NCBI GenBank assembly: GCA_021647315.1 | Contig: JAKIUY010000025.1 | Span: 1 to 44,413, forward strand | Length of the DNA: 44,413 bases | Direction of reading: 5' to 3' | From: Victivallaceae bacterium | GTDB taxonomy: Bacteria; Verrucomicrobiota; Lentisphaeria; Victivallales; Victivallaceae | Shown here: one piece after another, positions 9,790-13,026 of the stretch | How the letters are laid out: the number at the start of each line of letters is the position of its first letter | Position numbering within the stretch: position 1 is the first letter of the stretch | Made by a program: the position numbers and the translations under genes | Notes under the pieces: generated by a model | What the model was told of the DNA's origin: nothing | Database searches by the model: none | Seen by the model: the letters and a program-made list of their open reading frames with translations, nothing else

Positions 9790-9948
9790 ATGGCGGCGAC
9801 GTGGTATGTGCCGTTTCGCGTAACAGTGCTTTTGTTAATCGGAATTTATTTTGCAAATTTTAAGCAATTGACCAAAACTGAAAAAATCGTTAATAGCGCG
9901 ATGCTGATTGCTATATTGGTTGTTTTTGGTCAAATTATCTTTGTTTGA
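9790..9948 (+). CDS. Candidate small membrane protein, 53 aa, two predicted transmembrane helices (MAATWYVPFRVTVLLLIGIYFANFKQLTKTEKIVNSAMLIAILVVFGQIIFV)
   Basis: ORF below the 60-aa track cutoff. An AGGGA sequence lies 9 nt upstream. It sits in a 457-bp intergenic region immediately before the left hairpin of the IS200-like unit. Speculative. Confidence 0.2.
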   Translation: MAATWYVPFRVTVLLLIGIYFANFKQLTKTEKIVNSAMLIAILVVFGQIIFV

Positions 9949-11020
9949 CCCCCCTTTGACCTTGTGTCAGAGGATGCAAAGATCAAAACTCGCCAAAATA
10001 TGAATCCCTGAACCTGAAAGGTGCATCATGTCTCATCGACTCTCCCATGAAGATATCGCCCAACTTTCGTTTGAAGATGCATTAGAGACATTGAAAACTG
10101 AGTTGACCCCACTTTATACTCTGGAGAATACCACCTGTGTTCATGCATTGCACTATTCATGGGCCGGTTGGCGCAGCCAAGGTGTGCCATTGCCTACTTC
10201 CATTGGTCAGGCTGTTGAACAGTGTTCGTCACTCTGGCAACAGGATGGATTTCAGTTGGGAAAACAGTCTATCAAAGCTGATATGGTTCAGTGTCTATTT
10301 GCAGTTGCTCCAGAAATCGCTCCGGTAAAATTTACGCAAAGAGTAAAGGGACGCCTTGACCATCAATTGCGTCAGCAAGGTGATGCCATAAAATTTTCAC
10401 GCAAAGTCGGCTTTAGATGCCTCGGTGAAAATATTCGCGAAACGGTCAATAATTATGTGCATAAACAGGTTTGTAAAAGTGATTATATTGATTCGCGTTA
10501 TAAACAGTTCCTGAGTCAATTTACGGTTGCTGATGATAGCAATGATTTAGCGATTCCGGTGGCAAAATCACATGGCAGATATTGGTATAATATTCATTTG
10601 GTGATTGTAGTTGCGGATCGCAATTTTCCAATCAAAGCTGAAGATAAGCTAGAGCAAATCAGAGCTTATATTCCCAGAATTGCTCAAAAAAAAGGGTGTG
10701 AGATTGCCCATTTTTCCATTTTGCCGGATCATATTCATATCGCACTGAAAGGGAATCCGGAGCTGTCGCCGTATGAGATAGGATTGAGCTTTATGAATAA
10801 TTTATCGTATGTGCTGGGATTTAACTGGACGTGGAGTAATGAGTTTTATGTCGGCACCTTCAGTGAATATGCTCTTTCGAAGTTGAGATGAACCGTGAAC
10901 TTTAATTCCATCGAGGTAAACTCGATAGGAATTGAATGTTCCTTAGCCAAACTTGTTTTTCACCTGATTTTGAACTATTAAATTAATTCCCCATCCGACC
11001 TTGTGTCGGGTGAAAAATAT
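9940..11020 (+). mobile_element. Putative IS200/IS605-like unit: a Y1 HUH-like gene flanked by same-orientation subterminal hairpins that share the loop CTTGT
   Basis: Left hairpin TTTGACC..TGACcttgtGTCAGAGG at 9957-9976. Right hairpin CAtCCGACcttgtGTCGGgTG at 10994-11011. An extra 12-bp hairpin AATTCCATCGAG-gtaaa-CTCGATAGGAATT at 10903-10932. Boundaries are approximate. Confidence 0.35.
10028..10891 (+). CDS. Tandem two-domain IS200-like (Y1 HUH transposase-fold) protein. The N-domain lacks HuH but keeps the Tyr helix; the C-domain keeps HuH (DHIHIAL) but lacks the Tyr helix
   Basis: C-terminal half: YWYNIHLVIVVADRNF, ILPDHIHIAL, WSNEFYVGTFSE, aligned by eye to IS608 TnpA. N-terminal half: HALHYSWAGW, ADMVQCLFAV (the HuH position, no His), VKFTQRVKGRLDHQLRQQ, IRETVNNYVHKQ (the catalytic Tyr-Gln helix). 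Confidence 0.55.
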   Translation: MSHRLSHEDIAQLSFEDALETLKTELTPLYTLENTTCVHALHYSWAGWRSQGVPLPTSIGQAVEQCSSLWQQDGFQLGKQSIKADMVQCLFAVAPEIAPVKFTQRVKGRLDHQLRQQGDAIKFSRKVGFRCLGENIRETVNNYVHKQVCKSDYIDSRYKQFLSQFTVADDSNDLAIPVAKSHGRYWYNIHLVIVVADRNFPIKAEDKLEQIRAYIPRIAQKKGCEIAHFSILPDHIHIALKGNPELSPYEIGLSFMNNLSYVLGFNWTWSNEFYVGTFSEYALSKLR

Positions 11021-11038
11021 TAGTCTGGTAACCCACAA

Positions 11039-12866: not shown

Positions 12867-13026
12867 TGTATTTTCTCATTTCATATACCCATTATGGGTA
12901 GTTTTTAGTTCACTTATTTGGCTCTTCTAACTCAATGAATGGAATTAAAGTTAATATTTCAGCCTAATCAGGTATAAAATCATCTATTTCTCTTATAATA
13001 TACTCTATGAGAAATAAATAACAATA

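What the first reader, a model, noticed from the sequence alone, without database searches (positions are those of the whole stretch)
9940..11020. Single-chain tandem IS200/IS605-type (Y1 HUH) protein with complementary loss of the HuH and Tyr motifs, flanked by same-orientation hairpins
The 287-aa product of 10028-10891 aligns by eye to two consecutive TnpA_IS200 folds.
- The C-terminal domain has the beta1 strand (YWYNIHLVIVVADRNF, cf. YHIVWCPKYRR), an intact HuH (ILPDHIHIAL, cf. DHIHIL) and WSNEFYVGTFSE (cf. WTNSCFISTVGG). It ends before the catalytic tyrosine helix.
- The N-terminal domain has the same fold markers (HALHYSWAGW; VKFTQRVKGRLDHQLRQQ, cf. MKFIKTAKGRSSRILRQE). The HuH position reads ADMVQCLFAV, with no histidines, but the Tyr helix is retained: IRETVNNYVHKQ (cf. 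VKQYIENQ, which holds the catalytic Tyr and Gln).
IS200/IS605 TnpA is an obligate dimer. Each active site is built in trans from the HuH of one monomer and the Tyr of the other. A fused pseudo-dimer in which one half keeps only Tyr and the other only HuH would have exactly one composite active site. That could mean a strand-specific single-cut enzyme or a domesticated nickase.
The gene is bracketed by hairpins with an identical loop in the same orientation, as IS200/IS605 left and right ends are: TGAC-CTTGT-GTCA at 9962-9974 and CAtCCGAC-CTTGT-GTCGGgTG at 10994-11011. There is a further 12-bp hairpin at 10903-10932. I do not recognise this architecture as a described family.
Basis: partly seen in the sequence, partly recalled or inferred. 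Interest (0 to 1): 0.75.

Follow-up and report, generated by a model that had tools for sequence, protein, structure and literature searches.

The report
Fused two-domain IS200-type nuclease with cognate hairpins
This gene fuses two copies of a small DNA-cutting transposase domain, one keeping only the metal-binding half of the active site and the other only the catalytic tyrosine. Across a whole bacterial superphylum it sits inside clusters of a matching DNA hairpin repeat, which makes it look like a previously undescribed domesticated transposase and repeat partnership.

Summary
The ORF at 10028-10891 encodes a 287-aa protein made of two IS200/IS605-type Y1 HUH domains.

- **N domain:** it has lost the HuH motif (M86-V-Q88) but keeps the catalytic Y143 and the metal ligand Q147.
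- **C domain:** it keeps D234-H235-I-H237 and stops two residues before the tyrosine position.
- **Conservation:** these residues are near-invariant in about 200 homologues. Both halves are under strong purifying selection (dN/dS 0.04-0.13).
- **Distribution:** the family has about 264 clusters at 50% identity and is almost confined to the PVC superphylum. It occurs at 1-2 divergent copies per genome, and the locus is syntenic in close relatives.

The flanking hairpins are real but are not simple IS200 ends. They are copies of a ~43-nt structured repeat: a CGMCC foot, an 8-bp covarying stem, a CTYGY loop, a 3-bp covarying lower stem and an AAGWT tail.
- The repeat is about 60-fold enriched within 500 nt of the gene in 85 loci.
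- The usual arrangement is "+ gene −", often as arrays.
- Orphan inverted doublets also occur away from any such gene.

Best reading: a domesticated, REP/RAYT-like system built on a single-chain pseudo-dimer with one composite active site. The geometry of that site and any catalysis are inferred, not shown.

I found no prior description. I rate it a new variant of a known kind.

The parts
9945..9987 (+). Upstream copy of the 43-nt structured repeat. It has a GACCCC foot, the stem-loop CCTTTGAC-CTTGT-GTCAGAGG at 9953-9973, and the tail ATGCAAAGAT.
   Evidence: Model R1 scores it 36.6 bits, E 2e-7; this sequence was in the model's training set. It is conserved in L003 and absent from L001/L002. 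The DNA fold is weak: -4.2 kcal/mol, z -1.3.
10028..10891 (+). Gene for the 287-aa single-chain tandem Y1 HUH protein (stop codon at 10889-10891).
   Evidence: ORF. Pfam and NCBIfam Y1_Tnp / transpos_IS200 hits. It is 100% identical to a 'Victivallaceae bacterium' transposase entry. dN/dS is 0.06-0.10 against the orthologues in L001 and L003.
10103..10543 (+). N-terminal Y1 domain (residues 26-172). The HuH position is degenerate (M86-V87-Q88). It retains K107-G108-R109, the catalytic Y143 (codon 10454-10456) and Q147 (codon 10466-10468).
   Evidence: The N-half profile matches PDB TnpA structures at E about 1e-7, with Y143 aligned to the catalytic Tyr. Y143 and Q147 are each present in 201 of 202 homologues. 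The F123-to-Y143 spacing of +20 residues equals my count in the IS608 chain's alignment from the Trp aligned to F123 to the Tyr of YIENQ.
10544..10888 (+). C-terminal Y1 domain (residues 173-287). The HuH motif is intact: D234, H235 (codon 10730-10732), I236, H237 (codon 10736-10738). It is truncated two residues before the tyrosine position. The conserved aromatic Y281 lies in this domain.
   Evidence: The C-half profile matches 2f4f at E 7e-15 and ends at ...SSEVIK, before the KY. Among sequences without a gap at the position, H235 is present in 194 of 196 and H237 in 190 of 196. Y281 is Y in 180 and F in 6 of 202 homologues.
10894..10936 (-). Inverted copy of the repeat, starting 3 nt after the stop codon. 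Read on the minus strand it has an AATTCC foot, the stem-loop TATCGAG-TTTAC-CTCGATGG, and the tail AATTAAAGTT. It corresponds to the family-typical minus-strand copy nearest the stop codon.
   Evidence: Model R1 scores it 19.3 bits, E 0.006, and it was not in the training set. It is conserved in L001, L002 and L003. The DNA fold is -9.1 kcal/mol, z -4.4. The copy nearest the stop codon is '-' in 34 of 45 loci.
10984..11026 (+). Second downstream copy, in plus orientation. It has a TTCCCC foot and the stem-loop CATCCGAC-CTTGT-GTCGGGTG at 10992-11012.
   Evidence: Model R1 scores it 30.4 bits, E 8e-6; this sequence was in the model's training set. It is conserved in L001 (two copies), L002 and L003. 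The DNA fold is -5.9 kcal/mol, z -2.7.

Best explanation
The gene encodes a single-chain pseudo-dimer of the IS200/IS605-type Y1 HUH nuclease fold. It has been kept as a low-copy, vertically inherited host gene throughout the PVC superphylum.

**Proposed active site.** Canonical TnpA is a homodimer with two active sites. Each site is built in trans from the HuH histidines of one subunit and the Tyr helix of the other. Here the two subunits are fused and have decayed in complementary ways, leaving one site. H235 and H237 (C domain) plus Q147 (N domain) would hold the metal. Y143 (N domain) would be the nucleophile.

**Proposed substrate.** The substrate is a cognate ~43-nt single-strand DNA element:
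- a CGMCC foot;
- an 8-bp stem;
- a CTYGY loop;
- a 3-bp lower stem;
- an AAGWT tail.

This element brackets the gene, usually as '+ gene -' and often in arrays. It also occurs elsewhere as REPIN-like inverted doublets.

**Proposed activity.** The protein most likely binds these hairpins when the DNA is single-stranded. It would nick next to them through a 5'-phosphotyrosyl intermediate and rejoin the strand, and so mobilise or maintain the repeats. This is the role RAYT enzymes are thought to play for REP/REPIN sequences.

**Shown:** the domain architecture, the motif pattern and its conservation, purifying selection, and the repeat, its structure and its association with the gene.

**Inferred:** the trans geometry of the site, hairpin binding, cleavage and rejoining, and mobilisation of the repeats.
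For: **Architecture.**
- Both halves are Y1 domains.
- The AlphaFold2 model is confident, with pLDDT 94.6 and pTM 0.89.
- The N and C profiles align in register at E 0.002-0.003.

**Complementary, conserved catalytic set.**
- K107, G108, G133, Y143, Q147, D234, H235, H237 and Y281 are invariant in 103 sequences.
- Y143 and Q147 each occur in 201 of 202 sequences. H235 occurs in 194 of 196 and H237 in 190 of 196.
- The N-domain HuH is replaced by x-u-Q, with vestigial H-u-Q or H-u-H in a few members.
- The C domain ends just before the Tyr position.

**Selection.** dN/dS is 0.04-0.13 for each half.

**Host-gene behaviour.**
- The downstream peptidase U32 and SPOUT methyltransferase genes are shared with relatives at 86-88% identity.
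- Genomes carry 1-2 copies, and paralogues are 49-82% identical.
- Taxonomy follows the PVC phyla.

**Repeat.**
- Upstream and downstream flanks share an exact repeat of 11 nt or more in direct orientation in 34 of 61 loci and in inverted orientation in 31 of 61. A mismatched-locus control gives 4.
- Hairpin density is 3.4-3.8 per kb near the gene against 0.06-0.08 per kb further away.
- Stems covary between loci. The lower stem, which was not used to select the hairpins, has a covariation score of 0.505 against 0.176 when shuffled and at most 0.18 when slid.
- The window has exactly 3 copies, all at the gene.
- Paralogues in one genome sit among different stems.

**Dispersal.**
- Orphan doublets and arrays occur in contigs with no family gene.
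- Copies lie 2.7-4.8 kb from the gene in at least 7 gene loci.
Against: - No coordinates were available, so the distance from Y143 to H235/H237 was never measured. The trans composite site rests on sequence logic.
- No biochemical data exist for any member.
- Genome-wide copy number of the repeat in a genome that carries the gene is unknown. The window has none in the other ~43 kb, so the repeat may be much rarer than classical REPs.
- The upstream window copy folds weakly (z -1.3).
- Most hits of the metagenome motif scan were chance 15-mers.
- A few hits come from MAGs labelled Myxococcales, Bradymonadales or Armatimonadetes. This could be mis-binning or horizontal transfer.
Confidence: 0.6

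Rival explanations
1. It is an autonomous IS200/IS605-family insertion sequence. Its transposase happens to be a fused TnpA, and the flanking hairpins are its left and right ends. The whole ~1.1-kb unit would transpose by peel-and-paste.
For: - The domains resemble class 1 TnpA, with DH[IV]H and Y-x3-Q motifs.
- NCBIfam transpos_IS200 scores 58.8 bits against a cutoff of 55.
- Two plus-strand hairpins bracket the gene in the window and in L003.
- Some genomes have two copies.
- Distant homologues lie in unrelated neighbourhoods.
Against: - The locus is syntenic in three relatives at 86-100% identity.
- Paralogues within a genome are only 49-82% identical. IS200 copies within a genome are about 99% identical (Table 1 of PMC6006769).
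- The family-typical bracket is inverted (+ gene -), and copies form arrays of up to 6.
- In L001 and L002 the upstream copy is absent while the gene is intact.
- Both halves are under strong purifying selection.
- One active site cannot make the two coordinated cuts that the IS608 mechanism uses. This last point rests on established knowledge, not on a test made here.
Confidence: 0.15
2. It is a host nickase or DNA-binding factor with a cellular role unrelated to repeat mobility, for example in replication, repair or gene regulation. The flanking hairpins would be its own operators, terminators or mRNA-stabilising elements.
For: - The gene is single-copy, vertically inherited and strongly constrained.
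- Hairpins sit close to the start codon (median -65 nt) and the stop codon (median +50 nt from the end of the alignment).
- In L004 the gene follows recC/recB-like genes.
Against: - No gene neighbour is conserved across phyla.
- The same element occurs as orphan doublets and arrays in intergenic DNA with no family gene nearby. Self-regulation does not explain this.
- The hairpins lack T-tracts: the terminator scan finds no terminator-like site at any of them.
- PADLOC gives no defence-system match.
Confidence: 0.15
3. The protein is catalytically dead: a structural or DNA-binding relic. On this reading the motif pattern reflects decay, not a composite site.
For: - One HuH and one Tyr helix have been lost.
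- No activity data exist.
Against: - The full catalytic set of a single TnpA site (two His, the Gln metal ligand and the Tyr at canonical spacing) is retained in about 97-99% of roughly 200 diverse homologues.
- The paired N-domain HuH positions drift freely.
- dN/dS is about 0.1 or lower in both halves.
Confidence: 0.05

Closest known systems
IS200/IS605 TnpA (Y1 HUH transposase, class 1; for example IS608 and ISDra2; PDB 2A6M, 2VJV, 2XM3)
   Same: - The motif flavour is class 1: D-H-[IV]-H and Y-x3-Q.
- Subterminal DNA hairpins lie next to the gene.
- The composite-site logic matches: HuH from one unit, Tyr from the other.
   Different: - TnpA is a ~150-aa homodimer with two active sites. 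This protein is one 260-300-aa chain with one retained site.
- Copy number is low and paralogues are divergent.
- The locus is syntenic in relatives.
- The hairpins come in arrays and mostly in inverted orientation.
- No tnpB gene is adjacent.
RAYT / TnpA_REP with REP/REPIN sequences (class 2 Y1; PDB 4ER8)
   Same: - The gene is single- or low-copy, vertically inherited and under selection.
- It is embedded between structured palindromic repeats that have a conserved 5' foot.
- Orphan inverted doublets resembling REPINs lie in intergenic DNA.
- There is one active site per polypeptide.
   Different: - RAYTs are single-domain with NH[VL]H and Y-x3-NP motifs and a cis tyrosine. NF047646 scores only 18.8 bits against a cutoff of 80.
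- The repeat has a CGMCC foot and a CTYGY loop, not a GTAG or CGTC tag.
- The abundance of the repeat per genome is unknown and may be low.
Class 3 TnpA_Y1 of Quentin et al. 2018 (Planctomycetes, Acidobacteria, Proteobacteria)
   Same: - It is found partly in Planctomycetes.
- It is low-copy.
- It is flanked by atypical secondary structures with a conserved 5' foot.
   Different: Class 3 proteins are 178-aa single-domain proteins with NHVH, Y-x4-Q and a CnGA foot. This family is a tandem protein with DHIH, Y-x3-Q and a CGMCC foot.

Membership tests
IS200/IS605 TnpA (Pfam PF01797 / NCBIfam NF033573) | Y1_Tnp (HUH) fold detectable by the family model | tested here: met
   - Whole protein: 60.9 bits against a cutoff of 23.
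- NF033573: 58.8 bits against a cutoff of 55.
- Both halves match solved TnpA structures.
IS200/IS605 TnpA (Pfam PF01797 / NCBIfam NF033573) | HuH and catalytic Tyr in the same ~150-aa domain, forming a homodimer with two trans active sites | tested here: not met
   HuH is present only in the C domain and Tyr/Gln only in the N domain of one chain.
IS200/IS605 TnpA (Pfam PF01797 / NCBIfam NF033573) | Multi-copy insertion sequence with near-identical copies and one left-end and one right-end hairpin in direct orientation | tested here: not met
   - 1-2 copies per genome, 49-82% identical.
- Syntenic locus in relatives.
- Hairpins in arrays, with inverted brackets predominant.
RAYT / TnpA_REP (NCBIfam NF047646) | Class 2 sequence signature (NH[VL]H, Y-x3-NP) reaching the family model cutoff | tested here: not met
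   NF047646 scores 18.8-20 bits against a cutoff of 80. The motifs are DHIH and Y-x3-Q.
RAYT / TnpA_REP (NCBIfam NF047646) | Low-copy, vertically inherited gene flanked by its cognate palindromic repeats | tested here: met
   - Synteny.
- PVC-restricted distribution.
- Repeats within 500 nt in 52 of 63 loci by strict pattern, and in more by the covariance model.
RAYT / TnpA_REP (NCBIfam NF047646) | Cognate repeats dispersed in many copies across the same genome (REP/REPIN population) | tested here: inconclusive
   - Orphan doublets and arrays exist without a gene nearby.
- Copies lie 2.7-4.8 kb from the gene in at least 7 loci.
- No whole genome could be scanned, and the window has none in the other ~43 kb.
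RAYT / TnpA_REP (NCBIfam NF047646) | REP with a 5' GTAG or CGTC tetranucleotide tag | tested here: not met
   The consensus foot is C-G-[A/C]-C-C. The GTAG/CGTC survey reports GTAG and CGTC repeats in Planctomycetes and Verrucomicrobia, but the passages returned for those phylum terms describe no repeat with a CGMCC foot or CTYGY loop.
Class 3 TnpA_Y1 (Quentin et al. 2018) | ~178-aa single domain with NHVH, Y-x4-Q and a CnGA foot on the flanking structures | tested here: not met
   Compared with the paper's Table 1: length, motifs and foot all differ.
HUH endonuclease superfamily (functional) | Metal-dependent ssDNA cleavage through a 5'-phosphotyrosine intermediate | not testable with these tools
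   The catalytic residues are conserved. No biochemistry or model coordinates were available.

The most novel reading that the evidence does not exclude
This would be an independent, PVC-wide domestication of a class 1 IS200-type transposase, and the first natural single-chain HUH pseudo-dimer. It would have one trans-type composite active site and possibly two hairpin-binding faces. It would have co-evolved for hundreds of millions of years with its own REPIN-like family of structured ssDNA repeats. On this reading it is a second, convergent origin of the RAYT-REPIN type of host-repeat partnership. It is also a compact enzyme that would make sequence- and structure-specific covalent links to ssDNA.
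Probability: 0.45. Interest if true: 0.78.

Novelty: new variant of a known kind. Interest (0 to 1): 0.68.

Why it matters
**A natural test of the TnpA mechanism.** TnpA of IS200/IS605 is the textbook case of an obligate dimer whose active sites are assembled in trans. A natural fusion in which each half has lost the complementary motif asks whether one composite site is enough for a biological function. It also gives a monomeric, asymmetric version for structural and mechanistic work.

**A possible second origin of a transposase-repeat partnership.** The tight, phylum-spanning association with a new structured repeat would add a second, independently evolved example of the domesticated-transposase-plus-repeat partnership known from RAYT and REPIN. 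The covarying stems, the conserved loop, foot and tail, and the REPIN-like orphan doublets all point this way. It would be in a superphylum where such systems are little studied.

**Annotation.** About 264 protein clusters (at 50% identity) now labelled 'transposase' or 'RayT' would be reclassified.

**Tool potential.** A single-chain Y1 enzyme with a defined hairpin target could serve as a covalent ssDNA tag.

Tried and rejected
- **Foot-tail pairing.** I tested simple Watson-Crick pairing between the 5' foot and the 3' tail at several offsets by eye and by mutual information. Only the 3-bp lower stem (-15..-13 with +12..+14) held up. 'Type A' copies (GA...GA) do not pair canonically there. 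A tandem sheared G·A is only a guess.
- **Locus search.** `search for related loci` with the 103-sequence alignment failed because no stretch was conserved enough. A 32-sequence alignment worked.
- **AlphaFold database search.** `afdb50` was unavailable, so I could not see UniProt names for full-length structural matches.
- **Metagenome motif scan**. Most of the 120 hits were chance 15-mers in unrelated DNA, and none carried the gene. Only about 14 loci held true elements.
- **Rfam.** No family matched at the locus. **PADLOC:** no match. **Terminator scan:** no terminator-like site at any of the three hairpins; its single hit lies inside the gene.
- **Literature.** Searches for tandem or pseudo-dimeric HUH/TnpA found no precedent. 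The one 'two HUH domains' hit concerns separate viral proteins.
- **Y281 as a second nucleophile: rejected.** It aligns to the linker, not the Tyr position. It is Phe in 6 otherwise intact homologues.
- **Apparent 'in-gene' hairpins: rejected.** They were artefacts of over-extended ORF calls.
- **Gene-fusion artefact or pseudogene: rejected.** The same architecture occurs in more than 200 sequences and is under purifying selection.
Full report
**What is at the locus.** The window carries an ATG-initiated ORF at 10028-10891 on the plus strand. The identical protein is on record as a 'transposase' from a Victivallaceae bacterium MAG. The first stem-loop is at 9957-9969 (extended stem 9953-9973), the second at 10992-11012, and the third at about 10904-10933 with one bulged T. 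The tyrosine is residue 143, not ~150.

**Two Y1 HUH domains, complementary in what they keep.**
- Pfam Y1_Tnp hits the whole protein at E 1.7e-16. The C half alone scores 7.5e-11. The N half alone scores 1.7e-4, which is 22.2 bits and just below the 23-bit cutoff. NCBIfam transpos_IS200 is just above its cutoff. The RAYT model is far below its own.
- A profile of 35 N halves matches full-length ISDra2, IS608 and Sulfolobus TnpA structures at E 1.6e-7 to 8e-6 over the whole domain. Y143-x3-Q147 aligns to the catalytic Y-I-E-[SN]-Q. A 'k-v-Q' aligns to the D-H-V-H of the structures. On their own, 26 of 35 N halves hit Y1_Tnp.
- A profile of C halves hits the Sulfolobus IS200 transposase at E 7e-15. 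The family's C terminus aligns to '...GNVSSEVIK', so the chain stops one or two residues before the catalytic K-Y.
- The N and C profiles align to each other in register over 72-85 columns at E 0.002-0.003. Each half is closer to canonical TnpA than to the other half.

**The pattern defines a family.**
- A search of 5.8 billion proteins returned 112 clusters of 256-300 aa. An exhaustive profile search of 1.84 billion representatives found 264 clusters at E ≤ 1e-30.
- K107, G108, G133, Y143, Q147, D234, H235, H237 and Y281 are invariant in 103 sequences.
- In 202 near-full-length sequences, Y143 and Q147 are each present in 201. H235 is present in 194 of 196 and H237 in 190 of 196. Most exceptions look like fragments or frameshifts.
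- The N-domain positions equivalent to the two histidines are variable at the first and mostly Gln at the second. A few members keep H-u-Q, and one keeps a full H-u-H. These look like vestiges of decay.
- Y281 aligns to the linker before the Tyr helix, not to the Tyr. It is Phe in six otherwise intact homologues. I read it as structural.
- Against the orthologues in L001 and L003, dN/dS is 0.06-0.10 overall and 0.04-0.13 for each half. The N domain is therefore not a decaying remnant.

**The hairpins belong to a conserved structured repeat.**
- In the two closest relatives with enough sequence, the downstream CTTGT-loop hairpin and the hairpin just after the stop codon are conserved. One relative has two copies of the former. 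The upstream copy is present in one relative and absent from the other.
- I fetched 80 further loci from GTDB species representatives. In 61 loci with both flanks, the 350 nt upstream and downstream share an exact repeat of 11 nt or more in direct orientation in 34 loci and in inverted orientation in 31. A control pairing mismatched loci gives 4.
- The shared sequence is always a hairpin. A uniform pattern search (5-nt C-Y-Y-G-Y loop (one run also allowed G at the third position), stem of at least 6 bp) finds 3.4-3.8 per kb within 400-500 nt of the gene and 0.06-0.08 per kb further out in the same loci.
- From 238 instances the consensus is 5'-C-G-[A/C]-C-C, an 8-bp stem, C-T-Y-G-Y, the return stem, W, G-[A/C]-R, n, A-A-G-W-T.
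- Stem sequences differ between loci with compensatory changes. The upper stem was selected for pairing by the finder, so its pairing is not independent evidence. The 3-bp lower stem was not selected. It has a covariation score of 0.505, against 0.176 when shuffled and at most 0.18 when the partners are slid.
- A covariance model built from 79 instances finds exactly three matches with E<0.01 in the whole 44-kb window with filters off: 9945-9987 (+), 10984-11026 (+) and 10894-10936 (-). The two plus-strand copies were in the training set. The last was not, and it has a divergent TTTAC loop.
- No Rfam family matches the locus.

**Arrangement.** Across the family, the copy nearest the start codon is '+' in 42 of 49 loci. 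The copy nearest the stop codon is '-' in 34 of 45. Each side can hold up to 5-6 copies. In the arrays whose spacing I read off, the period is about 60-90 nt. The tails (AAGWT) therefore face the gene and the feet face outward, giving an inverted bracket. The window shows '+ gene - +', one of the commoner patterns.

**Dispersal away from the gene.**
- A metagenome scan for CCGACCTTGYGTCGG returned 120 loci. None encodes a family protein by tblastn, while the positive control recovered 85 of 85.
- Most of those hits are chance 15-mers. The covariance model finds 28 significant elements in about 14 loci.
- These include convergent (+,-) pairs 130-160 nt apart and a six-copy array with a second cluster 11.4 kb away.
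- Two such doublets (L180, L183) are long imperfect palindromes with conserved GATTGACAACTAC arms and a GC-rich central palindrome. The L180 doublet lies just downstream of a 592-aa ORF. This is the anatomy of a REPIN.
- In at least 7 gene loci there are also good copies 2.7-4.8 kb from the gene.
- I could not scan a whole genome, so abundance is unknown. The window has no copy in its other ~43 kb.

**Not an ordinary insertion sequence.**
- The downstream neighbours (peptidase U32, SPOUT methyltransferase) are the same in the window and in relatives at 88% and 86% protein identity.
- Genomes carry one or two copies. Paralogues are 49-82% identical and sit among different hairpin stems. IS200 copies within a genome are about 99% identical (Table 1 of PMC6006769).
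- Nearly all hits are from Lentisphaerota, Kiritimatiellota, Verrucomicrobiota and Planctomycetota (including Brocadiia). Identity to the query falls broadly in that order.
- No tnpB gene is adjacent, and no neighbour is conserved across phyla.

**How it most likely works.**
- *From established knowledge of IS608 and ISDra2:* TnpA is a dimer. Each active site combines the HuH histidines of one subunit with the Tyr helix, and the Gln metal ligand four residues after the Tyr, of the other subunit. Each subunit binds one subterminal ssDNA hairpin. Quentin et al. restate the role of the Gln.
- *Shown here:* exactly one such set survives, and it is split across the two fused domains. The F123-to-Y143 spacing (+20) equals my count in the IS608 chain's alignment from the Trp aligned to F123 to the Tyr of YIENQ.
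- *Inferred:* there is one trans-type composite site. The protein recognises the CTYGY hairpins in single-stranded DNA. It nicks next to them through a 5'-phosphotyrosyl link and rejoins the strand. In this way it mobilises or maintains the repeats, as RAYTs are proposed to do for REP/REPINs.
- The conserved foot and tail, and the strong statistical dependence between position -13 and positions +11 and +13, recall the guide and cleavage-site pairing of IS608. I could not define a cleavage site.

**Comparison with what is known.**
- The large survey of Y1 TnpA proteins lists classes with median lengths of 148-325 aa. It discarded unexpectedly long proteins as fusions or errors and describes no tandem class.
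- Its class 3, partly from Planctomycetes, is a 178-aa single domain with NHVH, Y-x4-Q and a CnGA foot.
- The GTAG/CGTC REP survey reports GTAG and CGTC repeats in Planctomycetes and Verrucomicrobia. The passages I retrieved mention no repeat like this one.
- Full-text searches for tandem or pseudo-dimeric HUH/TnpA found no precedent. The library lacks most subscription journals and ISfinder, so an earlier description cannot be excluded.
- I file this as a new variant of a known kind. By fold and motifs it descends from class 1 IS200-type TnpA. In genomic behaviour it works like a RAYT-REPIN system. It fails defining features of both families.

**Limits.**
- Model coordinates are not exposed, so the Tyr-to-HuH geometry was not measured.
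- No biochemistry exists for any member.
- Repeat abundance per genome is unknown.
- Most loci are MAG contigs.
- Two of the three window copies fold only weakly or moderately as DNA (z -1.3 and -2.7) in this AT-rich genome.

Noticed in passing
window 9790-9948 (+): A 52-aa hydrophobic small ORF ends 5 nt before the stem of the upstream hairpin (its stop codon overlaps the repeat's foot). The DNA of its 3' part is conserved in L001, L002 and L003, where it likewise ends at a stop codon (TGA or TAA) just upstream of the gene.
   Followed up: no
L001 9057-9592; L003 5492-6093; window about 12867-13026: Both close relatives have a PhdYeFM-type antitoxin gene, plus a PIN-domain gene in L003, just beyond the SPOUT methyltransferase. 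The window has only ~160 nt of intergenic DNA at the same place. This is an indel between relatives.
   Followed up: no
homologues P0136, P0151, P0169, P0180 and others: The long low-complexity C-terminal tails of some homologues carry recurring motifs such as HRDKPGG and TDTGS. These look like read-through translation of the downstream hairpin arrays, not extra domains.
   Followed up: partly
homologues P0168; P0021, P0022, P0026, P0047, P0145: P0168 keeps a full H-V-H at the N-domain HuH position. Five others keep H-u-Q. These look like intermediate stages in the decay of the second active site.
   Followed up: partly
L180 1888-2060; L183 1278-1461: These are orphan inverted doublets of the repeat with conserved GATTGACAACTAC arms and a GC-rich central palindrome. 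The L180 doublet lies just downstream of a 592-aa ORF, and neither contig encodes a family protein. Their anatomy is REPIN-like.
   Followed up: partly
L107 20-451 and 11829-12005: There are six tandem copies of the repeat at a 64-nt period, followed by one inverted copy of a different subtype. A second cluster lies 11.4 kb away in the same contig, with no family gene between the two.
   Followed up: partly
repeat positions -14/-13 and +12/+13 (alignment A6): The commonest subtype (foot GACC, tail TGAA) has G-A opposite A-G where other subtypes have Watson-Crick pairs in the lower stem. This may be a tandem sheared G·A pair.
   Followed up: no
L004 1-7623: In one Victivallales-like genome (1.47-Mb contig) the gene lies directly downstream of recC- and recB-like genes. 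This is not seen at other loci, so it is probably coincidental.
   Followed up: no
window residues 1-25 (10028-10102): A short N-terminal two-helix extension is present in only about a third of homologues, including the query's closest relatives (P0002-P0004). Most others start near residue 26.
   Followed up: no
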